In this document: positions 11,639 through 46,397 of the stretch, piece by piece
Position numbering within the stretch: the first letter of the stretch is position 1
How the letters are laid out: every line of letters starts with the position of its first letter
Assembly (NCBI GenBank): GCA_963786805.1
Contig: CAWBAK010000004.1
Location: forward strand, 455,813-519,812
Origin: an uncultured Actinomycetes bacterium
Lineage (GTDB): Bacteria > Actinomycetota > UBA4738 > HRBIN12
Reading direction: 5' to 3'
Length of the DNA stretch: 64,000 nucleotides
Made by a program: the position numbers and the translations under genes
Notes under the pieces: generated by a model
What the model was told of the DNA's origin: nothing
What the model saw: only the letters and a program-made list of their open reading frames with translations
The model's database searches: none

Positions 11639-13028
11639 TCAAGCGTTGAACGCCACAGGAGACCTGGCGCGGGGGCACACGTCACTGCCCAAGACCAGCT
11701 TGCGAGCGACCGAGCGGTACGCGCCGCCTCGGTCGGGGATCCGCTCCCGATAGAGACCGGCGGCGTCCGTCGTCGCCAGCTCGACCGTCCGCCAGTCGCC
11801 GGAGACACGCCGCTGGATCCGGACGGTGACGTTCCGGAAGCAGCTGGCGAATCCGTCCGAAGCAGAGACCATTCCGCGCGCCACGAGGTGACGGCTGAGG
11901 GCAAGCGTGATGGATCGAGCGTGCACCGTGGCCGTGACGGTGAAGTCCGTCGCGCTCGTGCCGGTCCCGCTCGCGTTCGTCACGGTGATCCGGCCGGTCG
12001 TCGCTCCGACCGGCACGACGGCGGTGATCCTCGTGGACGAGACGACGTTGAAGCTGCTCGCCGCGGTTCCGTTGAACCTCACCGAGGTCGTCCCCGTGAA
12101 GTTCGTCCCATCGATCGCGACGGTCGTCCCGCTGGGACCGCTGGTGGGCGAGAACGACGTGATCGTCGGCGACCCGGTCGGCGTCACCGTGAAGTTGCCC
12201 GTGCTCGTCGTCGGTCCCGCCGGGCGTGGTCACGCTGATCCGGCCAGTCATGGCACCGGATGGCACCACGGCGGTGATCTGCGTCGGGGAGTTGACCGTG
12301 AAGTTGGTCGCGCTGGTGTTCTTGAACTTCACCTCCGTTGCGCCGGTGAAGTTCGTCCCCGTGATGACCACCGAGGTGCCCACAGGGCCGGAGGTCGGAA
12401 CGAACGAGGTGATCGTCGGCGCCGCCGCCGCGCCGGTCACCGTGAAGTCCTGGTTGCTGGTCGCCGTCCCGCCCGGCGTGGTCACGCTGATCCGACCCGT
12501 CGTCGCGCTGTTCGGCACGGTGGCGGTGAGCTGGGTGCCGGAGGGATTCCACGAGAACGTCGTCGCGTTCGTGAGGTTGAACTTGACCGCCGTCGTTCCC
12601 ACGAGGTTCGAGCCGTTGATCGTGACGGAGGTCCCGACGGCTCCACTTGTTGGGGAGAAGTTCGTGATGCTCGGAGCGCACGACGAGGAGACCGTGAAGT
12701 TGTCGGTGCTCTCGCCCGAGCCGTCCGGCGTCGTGACCAAGATCCTCCCGCTCGTGGCGCCGGCGGGCACGACGGCGGTGATCGAGTTGGGCGAGCCCGT
12801 GAAGGTCGTCTGATCGACGCCGTTGAACTCAACCAGGGTGGCACCCTGGAAGTGGCTGCCGGAGATCGTGATCGAGGTGCCGACCGGGCCACACGCGGGC
12901 GTGAACGCACCGACCGTGGGCGCCGGGGCCGCTTCGGCAACAGGCGCAACGGAAAGGCTCAGCACGACGACCGCCAGCGACACCGAACCGATGAGGCGGC
13001 GGGGCAGCGAGCGACTCGAAGGACTCAT
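11639..13028 (-). CDS. cell-surface protein with tandem IPT/TIG domains; frameshift ~12200
   Basis: ATG 13028 with GGGAGG SD 4 nt upstream; MSPSSRSLPRRLIGSVSLAVVVLSLSVAPVAEA signal; at least five repeats of ..PTSGPVGTSVTITGTNFTGAT.VKF..T.AT.FTV.S.T.ITAVVP.GATTGRI.VTTPGG spread over ORFs 11682..13040 and 11639..12187 (different frames). Confidence 0.7.
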
Positions 13029-14027: not shown

Positions 14028-15773
14028 TCAGTTCTCGCAGCCCGCGATCGAGTCGCTGCCCGGGCCTCCGTTGCAGGTGTCGTTGCCCGGACCGCCGTTG
14101 ATCGCATCGTTCCCTCCGCCGCCGCGGATGTTGTCATTCCCGGCGCCACCGCGGAGGCCGTCGTTACCAGAGCCACCCTTCAACGCGTCGTCGCCGCCGC
14201 CGCCGAGAACGGTGTCGTTGCCCGCCCCCGCTCTGACGGTATCGCGGCCGCCACCGCCTCGTGCCGTGTCGTCACCAGCGCCGCCGCGCAGAGTGTCGTC
14301 GCCATCTCCACCGGACAGCGTGTCGTTACCGGCTCCCCCGGCGAGCGTGTTGGCGGAGCCGTTCCCGACGAGCGTGTCAGCGAACGCCGAGCCCGTCACG
14401 TTCTCCACGGTGGTGAGGACGAGGGTGTCTGTCCCCTGGCCGGTCGCGACGCCCGTCGCGAGATTCACGTTGACGGCAGCAGCAGCAGCACCGTAGTGCG
14501 CGACATCCGTGCCGTTGCCGCCGTTCATGATGTCGTTCCCGTTGCCTCCGACCAGCCGGTCGTTGCCGTCGTCGCCGTTCAGGGTGTCGTCCCCGTCGCC
14601 CCCGTCGATCGTGTCGTCGCCGACACCCCCCGAGATCACGTTGTTGCCCGTGCTGCCGGTGAGGAGGTCGGCGCCGGAGCCACCGGTCAGGTTCTCCGTG
14701 GTCGTGATGGTGTCGGTCCCCGCGCCGACCGTGTTCTGGGCGGCCACGACCGCAAGGCTCACCGTAACGGCCGCGGCCGACGTGGAGTAGCTGGCCGTGT
14801 CCGTTCCGATGCCGCCGTTGATCCCGTCGTTGCCGAGATCACCGATCAGCGTGTCGTTGCCATCGTCGCCGTTCAGGGTGTCGTCGCCTGCTCCACCGTT
14901 GATCACGTCGTCGCCGGCGGCACCCGAGATGACGTTGTTGACGGTGCTGCCTGTCAGGATGTCTGCTGCCGAGCCACCCGTCAGGTTCTCGACGTTCGTG
15001 ATCGTATCGCTCCCCGCGCCTCCGGTGTTCTGCGCCGTTGTCGTCGCGAGGTTCACGGTCAGGGCGGCAGCGATCCCAGTGTACGTCAGCGTATCGGTCC
15101 CGGCGCCCCCGTTGAGCGTGTCCGCGTCCGTTCCGGTACCGCCGTTCAAGGTGTCGTTGCCGTTACCGCCCGTGAGGCTGTCGGCCCCGGCTTCGCCGTT
15201 GATCGTGATCGCGGTCGCGAACGTGGCACCGTTCACGCTGTCGTTACCACCGCCGGTGTTGACGGTGAAGTTCTCGATGCCCGCTTGGGTGATATCGGAC
15301 CCGTTCACCTCGAACGGAACGAACGTGATGGTGTCGACTCCTCCCGAGCCCGTGATCGTCAACGAGTCGGTCCCGCCGAGCAGGTCGATGTTGAAGTCGT
15401 CGTCGTCGTCGAACGAGCCGCCCGCACCACCGTCATTGATGGTGACGCTCTCGTTCCCGGCGGCGCCGTCCACATCGATCGTGCCGATGTCGGCGGAATC
15501 GTTGTTGTCGCAGTCCCCGTCCGCCTGGGGCGCGATGACGATGTCGCCGTTGGCGGCGAGCGAGAAGGTGACGGAATCGCCCGACGCCAGGTCGACATTG
15601 AGGACTTGATTCGGTGACACGCCCGTGGCTGCTTCGCAGGTCACCGCGGCCATGGCGGGGATCGCCGTTAGGCCGACGACGAAGGTCGCCGTGAGTACGG
15701 AGAACAAGAGCGCGCCGAGCCGCCTCGCAACCTTGCGCGGCCGAGTCGCACGGGCAGTAGCGTGAGCCAACAT
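14028..15773 (-). CDS. secreted RTX (hemolysin-type calcium-binding repeat) protein 1
   Basis: ATG 15773 with AAGGGAGG SD; signal MLAHATARATRPRKVARRLGALLFSVLTATFVVGLTAIPAMA; more than 25 GGxGxDxL/I nonapeptide repeats (GGAGDDTLNGDDGNDTLIG..). Confidence 0.8.
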   Translation of the reverse strand: MLAHATARATRPRKVARRLGALLFSVLTATFVVGLTAIPAMAAVTCEAATGVSPNQVLNVDLASGDSVTFSLAANGDIVIAPQADGDCDNNDSADIGTIDVDGAAGNESVTINDGGAGGSFDDDDDFNIDLLGGTDSLTITGSGGVDTITFVPFEVNGSDITQAGIENFTVNTGGGNDSVNGATFATAITINGEAGADSLTGGNGNDTLNGGTGTDADTLNGGAGTDTLTYTGIAAALTVNLATTTAQNTGGAGSDTITNVENLTGGSAADILTGSTVNNVISGAAGDDVINGGAGDDTLNGDDGNDTLIGDLGNDGINGGIGTDTASYSTSAAAVTVSLAVVAAQNTVGAGTDTITTTENLTGGSGADLLTGSTGNNVISGGVGDDTIDGGDGDDTLNGDDGNDRLVGGNGNDIMNGGNGTDVAHYGAAAAAVNVNLATGVATGQGTDTLVLTTVENVTGSAFADTLVGNGSANTLAGGAGNDTLSGGDGDDTLRGGAGDDTARGGGGRDTVRAGAGNDTVLGGGGDDALKGGSGNDGLRGGAGNDNIRGGGGNDAINGGPGNDTCNGGPGSDSIAGCEN

Positions 15774-15905
15774 GTGGTCCTCCCTTAGTCCAAGACGCTG
15801 CGGGGGAAGCGCCCCCCGCCAGACCCCCAACCCTATGCATCGTTGCTTCCAGAATCAAGGCATGCCGAAGGGAACCTGAGACCGACCCAGAGCGTCTACA
15901 CCCGT

Positions 15906-16262
15906 TTACGCATTTCCGGCACCCGAAACTACCCGGCTCCTGCCAGACCATCCGGGCGGAAGCGGATCGCACAGCGACTGCGCCGTGGCGGGACGTCTCT
16001 CGACGACCCTACTGAACCGTTGGCGCGTGATCAGGTTCTGCAGCTCATACGGATCCTCGTCGTATCGGTAACTCCTCCTCTCCCGTCGTGAGCCGTGTAT
16101 AGAGGTCGTTCGCCGTGCGGAACGAGCAAAACGGCGGCGCCCTCCCCTCGAGGCCTCGCCGAACAGTCCCGTCCGATAACCGACCTCGTTCAGCCACGTC
16201 GCGAGCGTCGAGGAGTCGTCGAAGGCCGCGAAGCCGCCGCTCGGGCCGTCGTTCCCGTACAC
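15906..16262 (-). pseudogene. possible sulfatase gene remnant
   Basis: Stop-free ORF in the 620-bp gap between the two RTX genes. It contains sulfatase-like ..DDSSTLATWLNEVGYRTGLFGE.. joined to a C-terminal-like ..YRYDEDPYELQNLI.. in about 118 aa, consistent with a collapsed arylsulfatase. Confidence 0.3.
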
Positions 16263-16332: not shown

Positions 16333-16362
16333 GGAATCGGCCCCCTTTCGGGGGCCGATTCC
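16333..16362. terminator. perfect 13-bp stem / 4-nt loop hairpin (GGAATCGGCCCCC-TTTC-GGGGGCCGATTCC), likely terminator of RTX gene 2
   Basis: Lies 31 nt downstream of the RTX2 stop (16394) on the minus strand; followed by TTTGCGTT on the plus strand and UUGUCUAA on the minus strand. Confidence 0.45.
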
Positions 16363-16393: not shown

Positions 16394-18211
16394 TTAGACC
16401 AGACGAGCCGCCTGCGGAGCCCGAGGGTTCCCTCGTGTCCCGCAGCTCCGCCGGATCTCGACCTGGCTGCAAGTGTCGTTGCCCTTGCCGCCGTTGCCGA
16501 CGTCCGTGCCGGAGCCACCGAACAGCCGGTCGTTGCCGGCAGCACCACGGAGGGTGTCGTCGCCATTGACGCCGCGAAGCACGTCGTTGCCCTTGCCACC
16601 CTTCAGTGTGTCGTTCCCGCTGAAGCCGGTCAGCGTGTCGTTACCGCCGCGGCCGTTGAACAGGAAGTTGACCGTGCCGCCGCCCGCGAACGGGCCGCCG
16701 GTGATCTGGTCGTTGAACTGGGAGCCTACGACGATCTCGACGATGTCGCCGAAACCATCATCGCCTTCGCCGCTGGCGAACCCGAGGCTCAGGTCGACGT
16801 TGACACCGTTGGCCGAGTTGATGAAGCTCACTCGGTCGGCGCCGGTTCCACCGGTGAAGGTGTCGTTGCCCTCACGGCCGACCAGCGTGTCGTTGCCCGC
16901 GAAACCACTCAGGATGTCGTCGCCGACACCACCATCGAGGAGGTTGCGCACGTCGTTACCGAGGAGCGTGTCGTTCGACGAGCCACCGATCGCATGGTCC
17001 AGGCTGTCAGCCGTGAACGGTCCGAGCGGAGCGACGCCGTTGTCCAGCGCATCCAGGTCGATCAACTGGCCCGAGGTCTTCGCGGACGCGTCGACCAGGT
17101 CGATCCCAGCCCCACCGACGAACGTGTTGGTGGTCGGGTCGTCCCAGATCAGGACGTTGCCGGCCGCTGCCCCGACGAAGTTGGTCGGGCCGTCGAACGT
17201 GTCGGCACCCTGACCCGTGGCGGTACCGAGCGCCGGGGTGATCGTCATCGCGGCCGACGAGGTCGACCAGTCGATCGTGTCACCAGCGTCGCCGGTGACA
17301 TCGTCGTCGCCGTCACCCGGAGTGTAGGCCGAATCCCCACATCCACCATCGTCCAGCGTGTCGGCCCCAGTACCGGTGATGACGATCTCGAAGCAGTCGA
17401 TGGAGTCGACCTCTTCTCCCGCGTCATCGTTGTCACCGTCGGCGTTGGCATCACGGCCCGCGTCGCTCCCGTTCAGGACGAACGTGGAGGTCGTGCGGGT
17501 CGCGTAGCTGAGCGTGTCCACGCCGCTGCCGCCGCTGACGTCGCCGTCATCGGCCGTGCCCGGAGACAGGACGTCGTCGCCGTCGTGGCCGTGCAGACGG
17601 TCAACCACGAAGGTCAATGCGCTCGCGTCCCACACGTCGTCTCCGTCGCAGCCCTCAGCGTCGTATTGCTCGACCCCGAGGACCTCACCGAGGCCGCCGT
17701 TCAGGTTGAACGTCGTGTTCGTCAGGACGACCGTGTTGTCCTGGTCGCAGTTGACGAAGATCCCCAGCAGGTCGGTCGTGAGCGCCGGGTTCGCTCCGAG
17801 GTCGATGTGCCACGCGATCGCGGTACTGAACGTTCCGCCGCTGGCCTCATCGATGTCGAATTCCTCGGCGTCGCTCGGCGCGCCGAGAACGACGATGGAG
17901 ACGGTGTTCGAGTTCGACGCGCTACCACAGGCGACGAAGCCGGTGACTCCGTCGTCGAACAGGATCGCCCCCGCCGGCGCCGCCGGATCGAGGTCGTCCG
18001 CAGTCGTCTCCACAGCCACGGCCGCAGTGGCGCCCGGGTCGATCGTGATGTTGATCGTGTCGGTGGCGGGGTTGTACGTGCAGGCTGTTACGGCCGACGC
18101 TACCCCGGCTCCGACGATCGCCAGGGCCTGGAAGCCGACGAGAGCGAAGGTGGTTACCAGCGCTCTCGAGGCCATGCCCCGGCGAGATTTCCCTTTACGG
18201 AGGAAGCTCAT
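16394..18211 (-). CDS. secreted RTX (hemolysin-type calcium-binding repeat) protein 2
   Basis: ATG 18211 with AAAGGAG SD 7 nt upstream; signal [40 protein letters not shown]; Asp/Gly-rich N-terminal region, then GGxGxD repeats ([59 protein letters not shown]). Confidence 0.8.
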
Positions 18212-18470
18212 AAATGGGCTCCTTTCTCTCCTCCGTCCAAAACGAACAAGTTCCGCGCAGGGACGCAAAGACCCTGCAGGGGGAAGTCCGGGCGGATGCT
18301 ATGCCCGTGAACCTGGCGAGTCAAATACGCCAACCTCCCCTTGCCACACCCAGCTTCCGGTGCTGGGGCGCCGCGTCCCCCCTTTCGGGCGTCCATACGC
18401 GGGAGCGGCCTTCGCCGCTTCCGGTCTAGATAACGGCGCTCGTATCGAAAGGTTGCTGGGGGCCAAGGTT

Positions 18471-20060
18471 TTAGGCAGCCGCGTCGCTCAGGCTCATCGA
18501 CCCGCCGTACATCGTGCCATCCACCCAGACCCTCAGCGTGGCTGAGACGAAGCCTCGGCTGGGGAGGCCCGCGACGGGGGTCTCTGGGTTCAACAGGTCG
18601 AAGGTTCCCTCGAAGCGATACACCGTGGAGCCGTCAGCATTCGGTGCCGTGTCGGCCAGGGTGGCAACGCCACCGTAGAGATGGATCCCCGCGGCCGACG
18701 TGAGCCCGACTCGGAATTCGATCTGTCCGCCCGTGGGGTCAACCCCGCCCCATTGCTGGAGAGAGAACGGCCACGTGAGATCTCCTACCGAGTCCCGGGC
18801 GCCTCCCTTGACGACCTGGGAGAACTGGAATCCTCCATCGGTCCGCTCAACCTGCGACGATGCTCGCGAAGACCCATCACACGTGCAAACTTCAACGGAT
18901 TCGGTTGAAGTGCCGAAGTCGAAGGACCAGGCCGGCGCGGGTGGCACGGTCGGCTCGGGCGAGGGCTCCGGCTCGGGCGACGGCTCGGGGGATGGGGCCG
19001 GAGCCGGGGGTACCGTCGGCTCCGGGGAAGGAATCACGACGGGAGTCGGCTCCACCGGATCGGGATCGACGCGGTCGCGGTCTCTCGGCACTCGCTCCCG
19101 CACCGGCGGAGACAGGACCTCCGCCTTCGGCTCGAGCGGTGGCGCGTCGATGACCTCTGGGGCGGCGATGGGGGCTTCCGCCCGGTCGACCCGCTCGCCG
19201 CGGTCCTTCACGATCGTGGCCGCGCCGACGGTGACGCCGCCGGCCACCAACAGAGTCATCCCGGCGGCAAGGACCCGCTCGCCGAATCCGGCCCCGCTCG
19301 CGACGACCGCGGGACTGGACGCGACGCTCGACACGACCTCGGGGGTGGCCACCTGGGCGACCTGTCCGACGTGGGCAACCCGATCGACGACGCGCTTGGC
19401 GAGGTGCGTGGCCTGGAGCAGCCAGAGGAGCGGAAGCACCGCGATGGCGGCCAGTCCGCCCTTCTCGGTCACGGCGAGGAGCCAGCGGCGCCGGAAGCTG
19501 CCTTTGGCCCGATGGATCAGGGCCTTGGCCTGCGCGGGCGACATCTCCATGACCTCGCCGATCTCCCGGTGCGAGCGCCCCTCAAGCTCGCGAAGGACGA
19601 GCGCGGTCCGGTGGCTCTCGGGAAGGCCAGACAGGACCGAGAGCACCAGGTCCCGTTCGATGAGCCGTTCGACGGCATCTTCCGGGCCCTGGGCGGGATC
19701 GACCCGCTCGAACTGCTCAAGCGGCTCGTCGTCTACCAAAGGACGGCGCGTGCGCGTTCGGATCGCGTCCAACGACACGTTCGTCGCGATCCGTCCGATC
19801 CACGGCTGGAGCGCATACCTGCCGTTGAATCGGTAGAGGCCCTGGAAGACCCGGATCATGGTCTCCTGCAGGGCCTCGTCGGCGTCGTGCGCATTGGGTA
19901 GGAATCGCTGGCACACGTGCCTGGCGAGCCCGGAGTACCGACGGTGGATCTCGACGAAGGCCTCGGGGTGCCCGGCCTGGAAGTCGAGAACGAGCATGCG
20001 GTCATCCAGGGCTTTGTAATCGCCCTGTCCGTTGCGTAGGTCGGTAACCCTGATGACCAC
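18471..20060 (-). CDS. ECF (sigma-70 family) sigma factor fused to transmembrane segments, Pro-rich linker and C-terminal extracytoplasmic-type domain
   Basis: GTG 20060 preceded by AAAGGGAGA SD. Sigma region 2 (LVLDFQAGHPEAFVEIHRRY..ETMIRVFQGLYRF) and region 4 (LPESHRTALVLRELEGRSHREIGEVMEMSPAQAKALIHRAKGSF) are followed in the same frame by hydrophobic stretches (GLAAIAVLPLLWLLQA; GMTLLVAGGVTVGAATIV), a PEPSPEPEPSPEP linker and a ~150-aa Gly/Thr-rich domain. Confidence 0.7.
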   Translation of the reverse strand: MVIRVTDLRNGQGDYKALDDRMLVLDFQAGHPEAFVEIHRRYSGLARHVCQRFLPNAHDADEALQETMIRVFQGLYRFNGRYALQPWIGRIATNVSLDAIRTRTRRPLVDDEPLEQFERVDPAQGPEDAVERLIERDLVLSVLSGLPESHRTALVLRELEGRSHREIGEVMEMSPAQAKALIHRAKGSFRRRWLLAVTEKGGLAAIAVLPLLWLLQATHLAKRVVDRVAHVGQVAQVATPEVVSSVASSPAVVASGAGFGERVLAAGMTLLVAGGVTVGAATIVKDRGERVDRAEAPIAAPEVIDAPPLEPKAEVLSPPVRERVPRDRDRVDPDPVEPTPVVIPSPEPTVPPAPAPSPEPSPEPEPSPEPTVPPAPAWSFDFGTSTESVEVCTCDGSSRASSQVERTDGGFQFSQVVKGGARDSVGDLTWPFSLQQWGGVDPTGGQIEFRVGLTSAAGIHLYGGVATLADTAPNADGSTVYRFEGTFDLLNPETPVAGLPSRGFVSATLRVWVDGTMYGGSMSLSDAAA

Positions 20061-20221
20061 AGTTCTCCCTTTAACGGAACGCCGGGTGATCGTCAAAGGT
20101 TGCACGCAGAACGGCTATTCTCGCCCGCCCTCGGTCCCAACCAGCGTAACAGGAGCCCAGAGCCACCGGCCTCGGCTGACCTGGGGACGCTCATCGGAGG
20201 CAGGGAGCCGGCGGAGCCGGC

Positions 20222-21667
20222 CTAGGGGGTCGGGTCCAGGATCAGCGGGTCCCGCGGTTGCTGCCGGAAGTTGAAAGCGCCGGTGAGATCGCCGAGAACC
20301 TCGACCTCCTCGCGCACCGTCGGGCGTGAGTCCGGGCGGTCGAGCGTCGCCGGATCCAAGCGCTCCCCATCGAGGAACCGATCCTCGATCAGCTTCAGGT
20401 AGGCGTCGAAGCTCAGCATCTGGTGGTCGATGTAGCCCTGCCTGGCGAACGGACTGATGACCAGCGAGGGAACGCGCAGGCCGTAGCCGGCATCGTCGAC
20501 CCTGGGCGGCAGCACGTGGTCGTAGAAACCGCCCCAGTCGTCCCAGGTGAGGAAGATCGCGCTCGACTCCCAGGCATCGCTGTTGCCGACCGCGTTGATC
20601 AATCGCGTCACGTACGCCTGGCCCGCGTCGATCCCGCGCCCCGAGGACGGGTGGTCGCTCGCGCTTCCCGGGATGACCCAACTCACCGAGGGAAGGCTCC
20701 CGTCTCGAACCTGAGCAAGGAAGTCGTCGTGGGTCAGGATGCGGTCGAGCTGGTCGGTCTCGTGCAGCGTCGTGAAGCCCGGCAGCGGGTTGCGGGTGGA
20801 CGGCGTGTTCTCGCCGCGAAGGTCGTCGCACGGCGGGAACACACAGGTCCCGTCGGCCACGTAGTACCCCCACGACACGTCCTCTCGGTCCAGAAGCCAC
20901 GTGATGTCGGTCCAGGCGTAGATCGGCCGCTCGCCGTACTCCCACCGCTGTTCGGGAGTCTTCAGGTCCACGTTCGAGATGCACGACATCGGGTCCCGCG
21001 GGTCGGAGCAGACGGCCGACCATCCGGACACGAGGAACAGGTGGGCCGGCAACGTCCAGCCGTCGGTGGGGCCGAACATCCGGTCGTGGAGAACGAACTC
21101 GTCCGCGTAGCGCCAATAGTTGGGGATGTTCCGCCGGTCCAGGTAGCTCATGACGTCGGGCTGCAGATCGGGACCGACGAAGGGACGGCACTTCGCCGAG
21201 CGCCGCGCGACGCACCACTTCTCCGCTTCCGGGAGCGCCGCGATGTGGCCCTGCATCGATCCGCCGTCGATCGAGCGGACGGACGCCTTCTGGTTGTGCG
21301 GGCCTCCTTTGTATTCCTGCGCGCGCGAGTGATACGGGCAGGAGGGGTGCCCCAGGATGGGATCGGGGATGCAGTTCACCGGCTCGCCGTCGACGATCGT
21401 GAAACCGTCGGCTCCCGGATAGGTCCCGAAGTAGTGATCGAAGGACCGGTTCTCCTGCACGATGAAGATCAGGTGATCGAGCTTGCGGAGGCCGGAGCCG
21501 GGCCCGACGACCTCGCCACTCGCGTTCCGGATCGCCGCGTCGACGGCTGAGCCCGAGGACGCGAGGATCGCGCTCGGCAGCACGACGGCCAGCGCAACGA
21601 GCGCGCCGATGATCGGCGCACGCAAGCTCTCGATCCGCGAGGGCACGCGGAGCCGATCGATCCTCAT
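20222..21667 (-). CDS. secreted phosphoesterase family protein (phospholipase C / acid phosphatase-like)
   Basis: ATG 21667; signal [38 protein letters not shown]; [21 protein letters not shown] is the hallmark of the phosphoesterase (PlcN/AcpA) family. Only the last 482 codons of table ORF 20222..23620 are used. Confidence 0.85.
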
Positions 21668-21862
21668 CGAGGCCTCGACTCTAAGCGCACGCACGTTCGG
21701 GCGGGTGTGGGGCGACCTGGTGACTTGGCCACTTCGAGCGTATCGGCCGCCTGGCGCCGGAACCGTAGGCGGCGGTGTGGGCCGAGGGGGCAACCACGGC
21801 CGGCCGCAGCCTAGGACGTTGCGCGGTAGAGGGGTGCCGGATGCCGCCGTACGGTCAGTTCG

Positions 21863-22912
21863 ATGCACCTCGTCCCCACCACCCGACGTTTGGTGGCGGT
21901 CGCCCTCGCGGCGGCCCTGGTCGTTGGCGTCGCGCCGGGTGTGGTTGCCGGTGCGGACGACGAGGTGGATCAGGTCCTCAAGGAGCTCCACAAGACCAAG
22001 GATCGGATCCGGGCCCGCTCCCACAAGCTCCGCCTGCTCCAGCGAGACCTCAACCGGCTCGCGACCTCCATCTCGCAGAACGAGGCACAGATCCACGAGG
22101 CCGACGAGCGGATGGGGGTGCTCGAGGGCGAGATCGACGTGCTGGAGGACGAGAACCTCGTGCTCGAGGGCCGGCTCGGGGACCGCAACCGCGAGGCCTA
22201 CATCCTGGGACCGGGCGCGCCATTCCTCTACTTGCTGACCGCGACCTCGGCCGAGGACGCGGCGGCGCGGATGTCGATCCTCACCGAGATGAACCGCCGG
22301 GACGCCGAGCTCGCGGTCGCGGTTCACCAGAACACGCAACGGCTCGGACGCGCGCGGGTCGAGCTGGTCCGGCTCCAAAGGACCCGGCAGCTCTCGATCC
22401 AGCAGCTCGAGCTCGACAAGGCCGAACTCCGGGAGCGACTCGCCGACGTCCGGAAGCTCTACGCGAGCCTCCAGATCATCAAGGAAGAGATCCTGTACCG
22501 GCTCTCCCGGATCCGGCCCTTCGCCGTGTGTCCGATCCAGGGTCCGCACGCGATCGCGAACGACTTCGGCATCTGGGTCCATCGCTCGAAGGAGCGGGGC
22601 GGAGACCACGTCCACCAGGGCAACGACATGATGTCCCCGATGGGAACCCCGGTCGTCGCGCCGTTCGATGGCGTCGCGGTCGCCGCCCCGAACAAGCTGG
22701 GCGGCCTGGCGGTCAAGGTGTTCGGCGACTACGGATACGTGTACATGGCCCACTCGTCCAGCTACGGCCAGCTCGGAGCGGTCGAGACCGGCGATGTGGT
22801 CGCGTACGTCGGAGCCACCGGAAACACGGGCGCGCCACACGTTCACTTCGAGTGGCATCCGGGCAACGGCGCGGCGGTCGACCCCTACCCGTTCCTGATG
22901 AAGGTCTGCTAG
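21863..22912 (+). CDS. M23 family metallopeptidase with N-terminal coiled-coil (murein hydrolase activator-like)
   Basis: 349 aa; signal [31 protein letters not shown]; long coiled-coil; C-terminal LytM domain [36 protein letters not shown]. Confidence 0.85.
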
Positions 22913-22941
22913 GCGCTCCGGGCGAGTCGGCCGCTCCTCGT

Positions 22942-23520
22942 TCAGCGACTCTTCTGAAGGGCGATCAGCTCCGAGATCTGTCCGCGCATCTCCTGGAGGC
23001 TTCGCGAGATCCCCGACAGTTGTTCCTGCACCCGGTCCGAGCGCAGACCGAGGGCCTGGAAACGCTCCTCGGTGAGCTCGAGCATCCCTCGGATCGACCG
23101 GGCCTGCTGCGATCCGGGCGCCGTCGCTCGGCCGGCCGGGACCGCCGCGATCTGCGCGGCTTGTGAGCGCAGGATCGTCTCGGCCATCGCGAAGACGCGC
23201 TTCTGCGCCGCGCGGGCGAGGGCCTCCTGCCGCCACCAGTGACGGAAGTTCCTCACCATCCCCTTCCGGCCGTGGCGCGGGCCGGGGGTTGAAGGCGCCG
23301 GCGGGATGAACGCGATCGGGGACCGTTCGAGCTCGACCACGGGACCGCCCATCGAATCCATCAAGGCCTCGACCAGCGAGAGGCGAACCCCCGGCTCCTC
23401 CTCCATGGGAGCCCACGGGTCCGCGGTGGTCGCTCGCGGGCCGGGGACGGCGTCCGACCTCCGTGCGATCGTGAACAGCGGCTCCGATGCGGGGCGTGCC
23501 GTTCGATCCTCCAGCGTCAT
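22942..23520 (-). CDS. hypothetical protein (C-terminal coiled-coil)
   Basis: 192-aa ORF with plausible composition and no domain recognised; the start could be an internal Met. Confidence 0.4.
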
Positions 23521-23718
23521 CTCCGTTCGCCTCCTCGGGGGGGAAGAACCCGCGGATCGGCGCGAGCGTCACCGCCGGTCCGGGGTGGAGAACCGTAGAG
23601 CCGGGCGAGGGGCCTTTCAACGACCCGGGCCTGTCTCACTCTTCGGCCCGTTGTTCGGCCTCGTTGGATCGCTGCCGTTCCCGGTAGGGTCGATGCAGAC
23701 ACGACCGAGGAGGCCGAG

Positions 23719-24150
23719 ATGCCGGTTCGCACCGCCGATGCCGAGTGGACGGGGACCCTTCAGGAGGGCACGGGGCGCATGCGTTTCGGAGGGGGCGCGT
23801 TCGAGGGCCAGTACTCGTTCGGCTCGCGCTTCGAGGAGGGCGAGGGAACGAACCCCGAGGAGCTCATCGCGGCGGCGCACGCCGGGTGTTACTCGATGGC
23901 GTTCTCGGGCAACCTCGTCAAGGCGGGATTCGCGCCCGAGCACATCTCGACGACGGCGGTGGTTCATCTCGACAAGGGCGAGTCCGGCTTCTCGATCTCG
24001 GGGATCGAGTTGAAAACCGAAGCGAAGGTGGGCGGCGACATCGACGATGCACGCTTCCAGGAGATCGCGGCGCAGACCAAGGACGGATGTCCCGTGTCCC
24101 GAGCGCTCGCCGCGATCGGAGACATCAGCGTGACGGCCAAGCTGCTCTGA
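23719..24150 (+). CDS. OsmC/Ohr family peroxiredoxin
   Basis: 143 aa; ..[25 protein letters not shown].. has the two conserved Cys motifs. Confidence 0.9.
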
Positions 24151-24165
24151 GAACGGGCGGTCGGC

Positions 24166-24195
24166 GGCGGGGCGACATCCGGACGCCGCCCCGCC
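24166..24195. terminator. GC-rich stem-loop (GGCGGGGCG ~12 nt CGCCCCGCC) after the osmC-like stop
   Basis: 9-bp perfect stem 16 nt downstream of TGA 24148-24150; no U-tract, typical of high-GC intrinsic terminators. Confidence 0.25.
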
Positions 24196-24248
24196 TCGTA
24201 CCATCCATGGTTCCCCGACGTTCCGAGAGACCGGGAGGTGGCACACCT

Positions 24249-24612
24249 ATGAAGAGGTCACATGCCCGTATCGCCGTGGTCGCGGCAACCGCGATCGCGC
24301 TGGTGGTCCCCGCCATCGCGGCCGAGGCGCAGCGTCAGCCGGCGCGGCCTGGGCCCGCTCGGCACCGCCGCGAGGGTCAGGATGGTGGACGGCAATCGTT
24401 TCCGGCCGGCCACCTTGACCGTCGCCCGCGGCACGAGGGTGCGATGGGTGAACAGCGACAACGTCTCGCACACCACCACGTCGAACACGGGGGTCTGGGC
24501 GGCGACGCTTTCCCCTGGTGAGCGCTTCGCGCGCCGGTTCCGCCGCGCGGGCGAGTTCAACTATCGGTGCACGATCCACACGGGGATGATCGGGAGGATC
24601 GTCGTCAACTAG
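24249..24612 (+). CDS. secreted cupredoxin (plastocyanin/amicyanin-like blue copper protein); frameshift ~24340
   Basis: ATG 24249 with GGGAGGTGG SD; signal MKRSHARIAVVAATAIALVVPAIAAEAQ in the frame of ORF 23745..24521. The mature domain VRMVDGNRFRPATLTVARGTRVRWVNSDNVSHTT..YRCTIHTGMIGRIVVN (His..Cys-x2-His-x2-Met copper ligands) is in the frame of ORF 24262..24612. Confidence 0.65.
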
Positions 24613-45110: not shown

Positions 45111-45221
45111 CTGGCGGTTCTCCTTCGCGGCTGCCGCTTCGGTGCTCGAGCCCTCGGCCGGGAATGGTACCAACACGCTGCAGCGATGGACTTCACCGAC
45201 ACCCGGCGGGTGTCTCGTTCG

Positions 45222-46397
45222 TCACCCTGCGGCACTGCCGGTCAGCTCTCGAACGGCGGATCGCCCGACGACGTCGGCATCAGCGGCGGAGCCCGGTGAC
45301 GGACCCGCCCGGTAGCGAGCTCCGTTCGGGCGTCGCCACGTCACGCCGCCATCGCGCTCCCGTTCCACAGACCATCCGTACTCGTGGACGAGTCGGTGAT
45401 GGAACGAGCAGATCAACAAGAGGTTGTCGAGATCGGTGCGACCGCCGTGCCGCCACCAGACGATGTGGTGCGCCTCGGTGAATCGCTTCGCTCCGCATCC
45501 GGGGAACCGGCACTCGCGGTCGCGGTAGCGGACCTGGCGGATCATCCACGGAGCGGGATCTCGGGACATCCGTCCGAGCCCGAGGACGCGCCCGTCGCCA
45601 TCCTCCACGACGGTCTGGACCCGGCCGTTGCAGAGCAATCGTCGCACCGTCTGCGAGTGGACCACCGGACCGCCCTCGAGCTCGCAGCCGGCAAGACCCC
45701 CCTCCGTCATCCCAAGTCGGGCGTGGACGACCACGGTCGCACGATCGGGCTCGGCGTCGACCGCGATCCGGGCGGAGCAGAGCGCCACGAGGGCATCGGC
45801 TCTGCGGGCAGGGGCATCGTGATCGCGCTCCTCGTCGGGCATCGTCGGCACGGTCTCGGCCACGCGCTCGAGCGCCCGAGCTACGATCGCACCCTGCGAC
45901 GCGGGGAGCTCGGCCTCCAGGCCGAACCGGCGCCCATCGTCGAAGTACCACCACGACGCCGAGCGAGCCTGCTCGGTTTCGCGGACGTCGTCGATCGAGG
46001 GCTTCGTCTCGATGTCGCCGCGATGCCGCACCGTGCCGCACGACACCGCTCGCGCCCATGGGATCAGGCGGCTTTCGGTCTCGGGCGTCGCGAATCGAGC
46101 GAGCTCCACAACCTTGTCGATGCCGAGGTGCCCGGTCTGCAGGGCTTCGGAGATCCGAGGCAGTGCCTCCAGCGCATGGGCGGCGGCGATCCATCGCCTC
46201 GCCTTCCACTGCGAGATGCCGTAGCGCATGCCGAGCCAGTGCGCGGCGTCTCGAGCTCCTGAGTTCCGCCATGTCTCGAAGCGATCGGCCGCGGCGACAA
46301 GCTGCAGAAACATCAGCTGAGCGCGACCGACGGACGCGTGGGCAGCGTCCAGCTCCATGGCAACCGCTTCGCGGTCCCGGAACGGGGCGTCGAACAT
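45222..46397 (-). CDS. HNH endonuclease with N-terminal DUF222 domain (REP13E12-type)
   Basis: 391 aa, intact; C-terminal ..CRFPGCGAKRFTEAHHIVWWRHGGRTDLDNLLLICSFHHRLVHE.. is the HNH motif; N-terminal 300 aa resemble the DUF222 of mycobacterial REP13E12 elements. Confidence 0.85.
   Translation of the reverse strand: MFDAPFRDREAVAMELDAAHASVGRAQLMFLQLVAAADRFETWRNSGARDAAHWLGMRYGISQWKARRWIAAAHALEALPRISEALQTGHLGIDKVVELARFATPETESRLIPWARAVSCGTVRHRGDIETKPSIDDVRETEQARSASWWYFDDGRRFGLEAELPASQGAIVARALERVAETVPTMPDEERDHDAPARRADALVALCSARIAVDAEPDRATVVVHARLGMTEGGLAGCELEGGPVVHSQTVRRLLCNGRVQTVVEDGDGRVLGLGRMSRDPAPWMIRQVRYRDRECRFPGCGAKRFTEAHHIVWWRHGGRTDLDNLLLICSFHHRLVHEYGWSVERERDGGVTWRRPNGARYRAGPSPGSAADADVVGRSAVRELTGSAAG

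What the first reader, a model, noticed from the sequence alone, without database searches (positions are those of the whole stretch)
18471..20060. One-polypeptide ECF sigma factor fused to transmembrane and extracytoplasmic domains
Sigma regions 2 and 4 (ending ..AQAKALIHRAKGSFRRRWLL) run without a stop into two hydrophobic segments, a PEPSPEPEPSPEP linker and a ~150-aa Gly/Thr/Ser-rich beta-type C-terminal domain (529 aa total). Normally an ECF sigma and its membrane anti-sigma are separate genes. Here sensing, membrane tethering and the sigma factor are in one chain. That implies activation by proteolytic release or a conformational switch rather than by partner-switching. The start is well supported (GTG 20060 behind AAAGGGAGA).
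Basis: partly seen in the sequence, partly recalled or inferred. Interest (0 to 1): 0.65.

Follow-up and report, generated by a model that had tools for sequence, protein, structure and literature searches.

The report
Membrane-tethered ECF sigma with sensor domain
This is a real, conserved gene of uncultured actinobacteria that joins a sigma (transcription) factor, a membrane anchor and an undescribed outer domain in one chain; the design is already known, but this family, its self-activating promoter and its link to a neighbouring secreted calcium-binding protein have not been described.

Summary
The ORF (window 18471-20060, minus strand, 529 aa) is real. It is an ECF sigma factor with regions 2 and 4. 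These run in frame into a short hydrophobic motif, one family-wide transmembrane helix, a proline-rich linker and a confidently predicted all-beta domain.

More than 110 full-length homologues (45-81% identity) from independent assemblies keep the fusion, so it is not an assembly artefact. All 52 genome loci come from metagenome-assembled genomes, almost all labelled Actinomycetota.

The C-terminal domain matches no Pfam family and no PDB entry. It was found only in this architecture.

An ECF-type promoter (GCAACC-N15/16-CGTT) sits in front of the gene in 47-48 of 51 loci. It recurs directly after the stop codon, ahead of a conserved secreted RTX-type calcium-binding protein. In one sublineage that RTX-type protein replaces the beta domain.

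Most likely this is a one-component transmembrane signal transducer: an autoregulated sigma held inactive at the membrane and released by proteolysis. That step is inferred, not shown.

Fused sigma/anti-sigma proteins are already known (IutY; ECF48, ECF52 and ECF53). I therefore rate this a new variant of a known kind, of moderate interest.

The parts
18471..20060 (-). Coding sequence of the fused ECF sigma factor (529 aa; stop codon at 18471-18473)
   Evidence: ORF list and translation; more than 110 full-length homologues
19743..19943 (-). Sigma region 2 (aa 40-106)
   Evidence: Pfam PF04542, E 2.1e-13; pLDDT above 90; Foldseek matches to sigmaE, SigW and AlgU
19503..19652 (-). Sigma region 4 (aa 137-186). 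Its last helix continues to about aa 200.
   Evidence: Pfam PF08281, E 7.3e-11; helix 175-200 in the model; Q177 to W193 nearly all invariant
19398..19460 (-). Hydrophobic segment 1 (aa 201-221, GGLAAIAVLPLLWLLQATHLA), with invariant P210. Probably a cytoplasmic or membrane-surface hydrophobic motif rather than a true transmembrane helix.
   Evidence: The uncharged run is 8-15 aa in 125 of 158 family members and 19-21 aa in 28, including the window's subclade. The crude insertion-energy sum has a family median of +5.9, against +1.5 for segment 2.
19278..19397 (-). Basic, amphipathic helix followed by a Ser/Ala-rich juxtamembrane stretch (aa 222-261)
   Evidence: Conserved RRVxDRxGHAxQxAQAAxPE; no match to any PDB sequence; no zf-HC2 hit
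19206..19277 (-). Family-wide transmembrane helix (aa 262-285, RVLAAGMTLLVAGGVTVGAATIVK), containing a GxxxG-type motif. A265, A273, G274 and A280 are invariant.
   Evidence: Uncharged run of at least 19 aa in 162 of 163 members; invariant columns
18939..19205 (-). Charged juxtamembrane stretch and proline-rich linker (aa 286-374), variable in sequence and length
   Evidence: Sequence; low conservation; pLDDT below 50
18474..18938 (-). C-terminal all-beta domain (aa 375-529) of an undescribed family; the putative extracytoplasmic sensor
   Evidence: AlphaFold2 pLDDT 95.2, pTM 0.89, nine strands. No Pfam family recurs among 43 members. No PDB sequence match better than E 0.34, and no Foldseek PDB hit better than E 0.34. 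Only 206 cluster representatives among 1.84 billion proteins, always in this architecture.
20078..20103 (-). ECF-type promoter in front of the sigma gene: -35 GCAACC (20103-20098), 16-nt spacer, -10 CGTT (20081-20078). Putative autoregulation.
   Evidence: Motif at a fixed distance from the start codon in 47-48 of 51 homologous loci
20143..20151 (-). Extended -10-like element TGTTACGCT, a possible housekeeping promoter for basal expression
   Evidence: Related TG(C/T)TA(C/G)NNT elements at the same place in many loci, seen by eye. Not tested statistically.
18432..18456 (-). Second copy of the ECF-type promoter (GCAACCTTT-N-CGTT), 15 nt after the sigma stop codon and facing the RTX-type gene
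   Evidence: the same motif lies directly after the stop codon in about 30 loci. About 10 further hits occur elsewhere in 632 kb, which is near chance. Motif matrix.
18296..18324 (-). Consensus sigma-70-type promoter TTGACT-17-TAGCAT in front of the RTX-type gene
   Evidence: Scan found 1 site against 0.1 expected; present in 26 of 30 aligned loci
16394..18211 (-). Downstream gene for a secreted RTX-type calcium-binding repeat protein (605 aa) with an N-terminal signal peptide; putative regulon member
   Evidence: Pfam HemolysinCabind, E 1.9e-22. A conserved neighbour with the N-terminus [18 protein letters not shown] in many loci. It is fused to the sigma in L019, P0267 and P0268.
16333..16362 (-). 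Perfect hairpin after the RTX-type gene; probable end of the transcription unit
   Evidence: Sequence

Best explanation
The gene encodes a one-component transmembrane signal transducer built on an ECF sigma factor. The N-terminal ~195 aa form a complete sigma2-sigma4 module in the cytoplasm. They continue into a short Pro-containing hydrophobic motif and a basic amphipathic helix. A single conserved Gly/Ala-rich transmembrane helix follows, then a proline-rich linker that probably spans the cell envelope. The chain ends in a ~155-aa beta domain of an undescribed family that is found only in this architecture and most probably lies outside the cytoplasm. Basal transcription probably comes from a housekeeping-type promoter. 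Once active, the sigma recognises GCAACC-N15/16-CGTT. That motif sits in front of its own gene, which would give positive feedback, and in front of the adjacent gene for a secreted RTX-type calcium-binding protein. The most likely control is that the membrane-tethered form is inactive and that a signal at the outer domain triggers regulated proteolysis: trimming of the outer part, then intramembrane cleavage of the helix by a site-2 protease. This would free the sigma domain, as shown for IutY and proposed for ECF52. What the data here show: the architecture, its conservation, the restriction of the C-terminal domain to this family, the two conserved promoter motifs, and the genomic and fusion link to the RTX-type protein. 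What is inferred: the topology, promoter use by this particular sigma, the nature of the signal, and the proteolytic release.
For: The fusion is conserved in more than 110 full-length proteins and 52 genome loci. The single family-wide transmembrane segment is supported; distant members have only an 8-14-aa 'ALIPA'-type motif followed by a basic helix. The C-terminal domain is confidently folded and has no known relatives. It is exclusive to this architecture: 206 representatives were found, and the short ones inspected are N-truncated fragments that still carry the TM or sigma sequence. The promoter motif lies at a fixed position upstream of the gene in 47-48 of 51 loci. It lies directly after the stop codon in about 30 loci. 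The strict motif gave 80 hits in 632 kb of loci, of which about 70 are at these two positions; shuffles of the window gave 0.72 per 64 kb. The AAC in the -35 and CGT in the -10 are the usual ECF promoter signature (general knowledge). The RTX-type neighbour is conserved even next to sigma homologues of only 31-40% identity. In L019, P0267 and P0268 the beta domain is replaced by the mature part of an RTX-type protein that elsewhere carries a signal peptide. This argues that everything after the transmembrane helix is exported and that the sigma and the RTX-type protein are functionally coupled. No adjacent anti-sigma gene was found. Proteolytic activation of a sigma/anti-sigma fusion has a precedent in IutY (PMC5411451) and is proposed for ECF48/52/53 (PMC8999054, PMC5826349).
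Against: No experiment or transcript data exist for any family member, and all come from uncultured organisms. Within 15 aa of the transmembrane helix, Lys and Arg are more frequent on the C-terminal side (3.1 against 1.0). This runs against the positive-inside rule for a C-out topology, although acidic residues are also enriched on that side. In the window's own subclade, segment 1 is 21 uncharged residues long and could in principle span the membrane. AlphaFold2 gives low confidence for aa 232-340, including the transmembrane helix, and I could not inspect coordinates for contacts between the tail and the sigma domains. No recognisable anti-sigma domain is present, so how tethering would inhibit the sigma is unknown. 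About 70 aa separate region 4 from the helix, which might let the sigma work while tethered. No protease gene is linked to the locus. The RTX-type gene also has a strong housekeeping-type promoter, so it does not depend on this sigma alone.
Confidence: 0.55

Rival explanations
1. The fusion is an assembly or sequencing artefact. A lost stop codon or an indel has joined a normal ECF sigma gene to a separate membrane anti-sigma gene.
For: Some homologous loci have shorter ORFs even though tblastn matches the whole query.
Against: More than 110 full-length homologues of 515-555 aa from JGI, ENA, NCBI and Logan assemblies keep a single ORF. The junction residues are invariant in the 93-sequence alignment. 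The coding signal is continuous. The broken loci break at scattered codons (118, 222, 267, 287, 329 ... 505) rather than at the junction, and they all occur in 'MFD' MAGs. No stand-alone version of the C-terminal part was found among 1.84 billion representatives.
Confidence: 0.01
2. The protein has a two-helix hairpin topology. Both hydrophobic segments span the membrane, so the proline-rich linker and the beta domain are cytoplasmic. The protein would then sense an intracellular cue while tethered to the membrane.
For: In the window's subclade, segment 1 has 21 uncharged residues. Lys and Arg are enriched just after segment 2. Both segments are strongly conserved.
Against: Segment 1 is only 8-15 uncharged residues in 125 of 158 family members, and it is followed by a strongly basic helix. 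Its crude insertion energy is unfavourable, with a median of +5.9. A sublineage carries, in place of the beta domain, the mature part of a protein that elsewhere has a signal peptide. AlphaFold2 predicts no hairpin.
Confidence: 0.2
3. There is no proteolysis. The sigma stays tethered and is switched by a conformational or oligomerisation change passed through the conserved GxxxG-type helix, or it is simply active at the membrane in the manner of ToxR or CadC.
For: The transmembrane helix is far more conserved than a passive anchor needs to be, with four invariant small residues. About 70 aa, partly flexible, separate region 4 from the helix. No recognisable anti-sigma domain is present and no protease gene is linked.
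Against: I know of no sigma factor shown to work while membrane-anchored. The only characterised sigma/anti-sigma fusion, IutY, needs Prc and RseP cleavage (PMC5411451). Small-residue-rich helices are also typical substrates of site-2 proteases (general knowledge). Positive autoregulation fits a switch-like release.
Confidence: 0.2
4. It is simply a member of an already described actinobacterial fused group (ECF48, ECF52 or ECF53), such as the SCO4117 type.
For: It shares the phylum and the order of parts: sigma, transmembrane helix, proline-rich stretch, distal domain (PMC5826349, PMC8999054).
Against: The zinc-finger (zf-HC2) anti-sigma domain that defines those groups is absent at E up to 1. 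A profile of aa 177-288 matches no solved anti-sigma factor. No carbohydrate-binding module is present. The promoter motif differs from the one proposed for SCO4117 (PMC5826349). All NCBIfam equivalog models score far below their cut-offs. The ECF Hub group models themselves could not be run.
Confidence: 0.07

Closest known systems
ECF52 sigma factors (Streptomyces coelicolor SCO4117) and the related actinobacterial groups ECF48 and ECF53
   Same: They are from Actinobacteria. One polypeptide carries an N-terminal ECF sigma domain, a transmembrane segment, a proline-rich stretch and a distal domain. There is probable positive autoregulation and more than one promoter. Release by an unidentified protease is proposed (PMC5826349, PMC8999054).
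   Different: Those groups have a zinc-finger (zf-HC2) anti-sigma domain between the sigma and the membrane, and ECF52 has a carbohydrate-binding module. Neither is detectable here. The distal domain here is a family with no known relatives. The promoter motif and the linked target gene (an RTX-type protein) are different.
Pseudomonas putida IutY (sigma/anti-sigma hybrid of cell-surface signalling, ECF243)
   Same: It has a cytoplasmic ECF sigma domain, a single transmembrane segment and an outer regulatory domain in one chain. It is the only case with experimental proof of activation, by sequential proteolysis with Prc and then the site-2 protease RseP (PMC5411451).
   Different: IutY is proteobacterial. 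Its outer part is a FecR-type anti-sigma domain that works with a TonB-dependent outer-membrane receptor. No FecR domain or receptor is present here.
Canonical ECF sigma plus membrane anti-sigma pairs activated by regulated intramembrane proteolysis (sigmaE-RseA, SigW-RsiW)
   Same: The sigma domain is structurally closest to sigmaE, SigW and AlgU. It has the usual ECF-type promoter with AAC and CGT elements, and autoregulation.
   Different: Those systems use two genes and a cytoplasmic anti-sigma domain that wraps the sigma. Here there is no partner gene and no recognisable anti-sigma domain.
Bacillus subtilis pro-sigmaK, cleaved by the intramembrane protease SpoIVFB
   Same: It is a sigma factor that is itself the membrane-associated substrate of an intramembrane metalloprotease and is activated by that cut (PMC12632252).
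   Different: Pro-sigmaK is a group 3 sporulation sigma with a short N-terminal pro-sequence. It has no C-terminal transmembrane helix and no sensor domain.

Membership tests
ECF (group 4) sigma-70 family | Regions 2 and 4 are present, with no region 3 or region 1 | tested here: met
   Pfam Sigma70_r2 at aa 40-106 and Sigma70_r4_2 at aa 137-186 only; they are joined by a ~30-aa linker
ECF (group 4) sigma-70 family | Scores above the curated threshold of the ECF superfamily model | tested here: met
   TIGR02937 scores 93.4 bits against a cut-off of 42.9. No equivalog model (SigW, RpoE, SigM and others) reaches its cut-off.
ECF (group 4) sigma-70 family | Target promoter with AAC in the -35 and CGT in the -10, usually also in front of its own gene | tested here: met
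   GCAACC-N15/16-CGTT is conserved upstream of the gene in 47-48 of 51 loci. Use of this promoter by this sigma is inferred.
ECF48 / ECF52 / ECF53 (actinobacterial fused sigma/anti-sigma) | A zinc-finger (zf-HC2, HxxxCxxC) anti-sigma domain lies between the sigma and the transmembrane helix | tested here: not met
   No PF13490 hit at E up to 1. There is no Cys or His motif in aa 193-262. A profile of this region matches no PDB chain.
ECF48 / ECF52 / ECF53 (actinobacterial fused sigma/anti-sigma) | One or two transmembrane helices followed by a long extracytoplasmic extension that is proline-rich in ECF52 | tested here: met
ECF52 | A carbohydrate-binding module at the C-terminus | tested here: not met
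   Pfam gave no hit for the window's domain and no family recurring among the 43 members. There is no significant PDB sequence or fold match.
ECF groups of the ECF Hub classification | Assignment by the group-specific HMMs built on the sigma core | not testable with these tools
   The ECF Hub models are not available here, and the supplementary group descriptions are not held.
IutY-type / FecI-FecR cell-surface signalling (ECF243) | A FecR-type outer domain and an adjacent TonB-dependent receptor | tested here: not met
   No FecR hit. The neighbours are a phosphoesterase, an M23 peptidase and RTX-type proteins.
ECF41 / ECF56-type sigma factors with soluble C-terminal extensions | A SnoaL/NTF2-like extension and no membrane segment | tested here: not met
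   No SnoaL hit. Only weak partial Foldseek matches to NTF2-like sheets, E at least 0.34 and TM about 0.26. A transmembrane helix is present.
Substrates of regulated intramembrane proteolysis | Signal-dependent site-1 trimming, then cleavage of the transmembrane helix by a site-2 protease | not testable with these tools
   Only indirect evidence: a helix rich in small, helix-destabilising residues and analogy with IutY (PMC5411451).

The most novel reading that the evidence does not exclude
This is a self-contained feedback sensor. A sigma factor with no anti-sigma domain is silenced purely by being tethered to the membrane. Its family-specific outer beta domain monitors the secreted RTX-type calcium-binding protein (or calcium at the cell surface) whose gene the sigma itself switches on. 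The sublineage in which the RTX-type protein has replaced the beta domain would be the fused form of that sensor-ligand pair.
Probability: 0.2. Interest if true: 0.6.

Novelty: new variant of a known kind. Interest (0 to 1): 0.42.

Why it matters
ECF sigma factors with built-in regulatory extensions are the least understood class of bacterial signal transducers. Only one membrane-spanning example, IutY, has been dissected experimentally.

This family adds a clean and well-conserved case from a lineage of uncultured Actinomycetota. It has a complete sigma, no recognisable anti-sigma domain, one highly conserved transmembrane helix and a new outer domain.

It also comes with an unusually clear prediction of its promoter and of one target gene. 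The promoter motif and the truncated sigma (aa 1-195) could be tested directly in vitro or used as an orthogonal switch.

The natural replacement of the sensor domain by the RTX-type protein gives a concrete hypothesis about what is sensed. It does not overturn any current idea.

Tried and rejected
1. Artefact hypothesis. I checked ORF integrity in 52 loci. The breaks are scattered and all fall in 'MFD' MAGs. Rejected.

2. Identifying the C-terminal domain. The following gave nothing significant:
- Pfam on 43 members.
- A profile against PDB sequences.
- Foldseek against PDB.
- hhalign against the neighbouring RTX-type protein.

3. Looking for an anti-sigma domain in aa 177-288. A profile against PDB sequences found nothing. 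My first alignment for this (A3) used the wrong reading frame for the window row and was redone as A4.

4. Looking for stand-alone homologues of the C-terminal part, that is, a split sigma/anti-sigma arrangement. None were found. The short hits are truncated gene calls.

5. ECF group assignment from the literature. The supplementary descriptions are not held, and Huang et al. 2015 is not held.

6. RNA element in the leader of the RTX-type gene. Rfam gave nothing and RNAalifold gave no consensus structure.

7. Further regulon members in the window. The two other strict motif hits, at 12580 and 45427, lie inside coding sequence and are at chance level. No motif lies upstream of the second RTX-type gene.

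8. Contacts between the tail and the sigma domains in the AlphaFold model.
Full report
**The observation.**
The window holds an uninterrupted ORF on the minus strand from 20105 to the stop at 18471-18473. It gives 529 aa and is the right one. Homologous proteins begin at the same residue (MVIRV...), often with ATG in the DNA, and the longer ORF would run over a conserved promoter.

Pfam finds Sigma70_r2 at aa 40-106 and Sigma70_r4_2 at aa 137-186. The NCBIfam ECF superfamily model TIGR02937 scores 93.4 bits against a cut-off of 42.9, while every equivalog model stays far below its own cut-off. GC at the third codon position stays high in one frame from the start to the stop, including the junction after region 4.

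The two hydrophobic segments (aa ~201-221 and ~262-285), the PEPSPEPEPSPEP linker and the Gly/Ser/Ala/Thr-rich C-terminal part are all present as described.

**Is the fusion real?**
A search of 5.8 billion proteins returned 370 hits. The best 120 are almost all 515-555 aa long, cover 96-100% of the query at 45-81% identity, and come from JGI, ENA, NCBI and Logan assemblies.

In an alignment of 93 of them, the residues around the junction (F189, R190, W193, P210) are invariant. So are four small residues of the second hydrophobic segment.

A scan of one genome per species found 52 loci. All are metagenome-assembled genomes, almost all labelled Actinomycetota or 'uncultured Actinomycetes'. Locus L025 is 95% identical over the part it holds, so the window comes from a close relative of that MAG.

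Most loci carry one ORF of 520-560 aa. About a dozen have shorter ORFs even though tblastn matches the whole query. Their breaks lie at scattered codons (118 to 505), not at the junction, and they all occur in 'MFD' MAGs. I take those to be long-read assemblies (from memory) and read the breaks as indel errors.

**Anatomy.**
AlphaFold2 with the 93-sequence alignment gives a confident sigma module (pLDDT above 90). Its last helix (175-200) continues after a three-residue break into a helix at 204-232 with pLDDT about 70-79. Confidence is low from 232 to 340. The last 155 aa form a very confident all-beta domain. Predicted alone, that domain reaches pLDDT 95.2 and pTM 0.89, with nine long antiparallel strands.

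The sigma part matches sigmaE, SigW, AlgU and mycobacterial ECF sigmas in the PDB. The C-terminal domain matches nothing:
- Pfam found no hit for the window's domain and no family recurring among 43 members.
- No PDB sequence scores better than E 0.34.
- No Foldseek PDB hit scores better than E 0.34.

A profile of the domain searched against 1.84 billion cluster representatives found only 206 proteins. About half have the full ~530-aa length. All the shorter ones I inspected are N-terminally truncated gene calls that still carry the linker, the transmembrane helix or sigma sequence. The domain is therefore specific to this architecture, and no split sigma plus anti-sigma version turned up.

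**Topology.**
Two membrane helices would put the C-terminal domain back in the cytoplasm, so the number of helices matters.

Across 158-166 full-length family members, the first segment has an uncharged run of only 8-15 residues in 125 of 158. It reaches 19-21 residues in 28, including the window's subclade. The second segment has at least 19 uncharged residues in 162 of 163. A crude sum of Hessa insertion energies (scale values from memory) has a median of +5.9 for segment 1 and +1.5 for segment 2. In distant members, segment 1 shrinks to a motif such as ALIPA followed by a strongly basic amphipathic helix (RLLxRLRR).

Independent support comes from a natural variant. In locus L019 the ORF is 934 aa long. 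After the same sigma, motif, helix and a linker, it continues into SAAVTCNMSADQTLTVNVG... and RTX repeats. This is the mature part of the RTX-type proteins that elsewhere in these loci start with a signal peptide. Two further proteins from other samples (P0267, P0268; 87-88% identical) have the same junction, so it is not a chimera.

One observation points the other way. Within 15 residues of segment 2, Lys and Arg are more frequent on the C-terminal side (3.1 against 1.0), although acidic residues are also enriched there.

I put about 70% on a single helix with the C-terminal domain outside, and I keep the hairpin model as a rival.

**Promoters and target.**
Aligning the upstream regions shows a motif, GCAACC-N15/16-CGTT, at a fixed distance from the start codon in 47-48 of 51 loci. 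In the window the -35 lies at 20103-20098 and the CGTT at 20081-20078. It has the AAC and CGT elements typical of ECF promoters (general knowledge), so positive autoregulation is the natural reading.

Further upstream there is an extended -10-like element, TGTTACGCT at 20151-20143, with counterparts in many loci (judged by eye).

The same ECF-type motif recurs 15 nt after the stop codon (18456-18432), and at the equivalent place in about 30 loci. With the strict pattern there are 80 hits in 632 kb of loci. Of these, 38 are in front of the sigma gene, about 32 are just behind it, and about 10 are elsewhere. Shuffles of the window give 0.72 per 64 kb. The two other hits in the window lie inside coding sequence.

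About 230-250 nt downstream of the second motif starts a gene with a conserved N-terminus (MSFLRKG..RRG...[11 protein letters not shown]). In the window this gene is at 16394-18211. It encodes 605 aa with RTX calcium-binding repeats, HemolysinCabind E 1.9e-22. The pairing holds even for sigma homologues of only 31-40% identity (L046, L053, L030).

That gene also has a consensus housekeeping-type promoter, TTGACT-17-TAGCAT at 18324-18296. The scan found 1 site against 0.1 expected, and it is present in 26 of 30 loci. The gene ends in a perfect hairpin at 16362-16333. It therefore does not depend on the ECF sigma alone.

The gene order on the minus strand is phosphoesterase, sigma, RTX-type 1, RTX-type 2. 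Upstream lie an M23 peptidase, OsmC and a cupredoxin. The upstream part varies between loci. No small membrane protein that could serve as an anti-sigma factor is adjacent.

**Mechanism.**
What the data show is a complete, strongly conserved sigma that is covalently linked to a conserved transmembrane helix and a family-specific distal domain. It carries its own promoter motif and has one linked target.

What I infer is that the tethered form is inactive and that a signal at the outer domain leads to proteolytic release. The grounds for this inference are as follows:
- IutY of Pseudomonas putida is a sigma/anti-sigma hybrid with one transmembrane segment that is activated by Prc and the site-2 protease RseP (PMC5411451).
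- The same model is proposed for the actinobacterial ECF48/52/53 groups, and a truncated SCO4117 supports it (PMC5826349, PMC8999054).
- Pro-sigmaK is a sigma that is itself cut by an intramembrane protease (PMC12632252).
- The helix here is rich in small, helix-destabilising residues with a GxxxG-type spacing.

The same helix features would also fit signalling by dimerisation. In addition, about 70 residues, partly flexible, lie between region 4 and the helix, which might allow activity while tethered. I give that rival about 20%.

The region between sigma and helix has no zf-HC2 motif and no similarity to solved anti-sigma factors. How the tail would inhibit the sigma remains open.

The replacement of the beta domain by an RTX-type protein, together with the conserved neighbourhood, suggests that the sensor domain deals with that secreted protein or with calcium. 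This is a hypothesis only. The two are not homologous.

**Comparison with what is known.**
The protein is a member of the ECF family on all the criteria I could test. It works like the fused sigma/anti-sigma proteins.

It fails the defining features of ECF48/52/53 (zinc-finger anti-sigma domain; carbohydrate-binding module in ECF52). It also fails those of the IutY/FecR type (FecR domain, TonB-dependent receptor) and those of the SnoaL-type extensions.

I could not run the ECF Hub group models. Whether the sigma core already sits in a numbered group is therefore unknown.

**Verdict.**

The new elements are the family itself (uncultured Actinomycetota only, so far), the absence of a recognisable anti-sigma domain, the orphan beta domain, the clearly defined promoter motif, and the genomic and fusion link to an RTX-type secreted protein.

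I rate it a new variant of a known kind, with interest 0.42.

Noticed in passing
L019:8001-10802 (+); proteins P0267 and P0268: A sublineage carries a 934-aa version in which the C-terminal beta domain is replaced by the mature part of an RTX-type calcium-binding protein. Three independent sequences share the junction.
   Followed up: yes
window 18219-18295 (-): The 5' leader of the RTX-type gene, downstream of its sigma-70-type promoter, carries a conserved CTTCCCCC stretch and a hairpin ahead of the ribosome-binding site GAGAAAGGAG. Rfam found nothing, and RNAalifold on 16 sequences gave no consensus structure.
   Followed up: partly
window 15906-16262 (-): An ORF fragment (…YGNDGPSGGFAAFDDSSTLATWLNEVGYRTGLFGE…) between the two RTX-type genes may be a decayed enzyme gene. 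I guessed sulfatase because L001 has an intact sulfatase gene upstream of the sigma, but I ran no family search on the fragment.
   Followed up: no
window 14028-15830 (-): This is a second RTX-type secreted protein (HemolysinCabind, E 1.4e-55), conserved downstream in many loci. It has no ECF-type motif upstream in the window.
   Followed up: partly
distant family members (rows of alignment A3/A4, e.g. P0241 and P0248): A distant branch of the family has two conserved cysteines (SSCxxMLxQCG, C-x7-C) just before the transmembrane helix. The window's protein lacks them. They may be a redox or metal site.
   Followed up: no
protein P0167 (3231 aa): A giant protein matches the C-terminal-domain profile in 13 partial stretches (profile positions 29-89). 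It is probably a repeat protein built from similar beta hairpins.
   Followed up: no
window 45180-45427 (-): An HNH-like ORF (…LICSFHHRLVHEYGW…) contains a chance match to the promoter pattern. Equivalent chance matches occur in several loci (ACAACCTxGTxCTCGTxTGCACGTT).
   Followed up: partly
window 20222-24612: The upstream neighbourhood holds a phosphoesterase-family protein on the same strand, an M23 peptidase, OsmC and a cupredoxin. It is syntenic in many related MAGs, but the gene directly upstream of the sigma varies (phosphoesterase, sulfatase or M23).
   Followed up: partly
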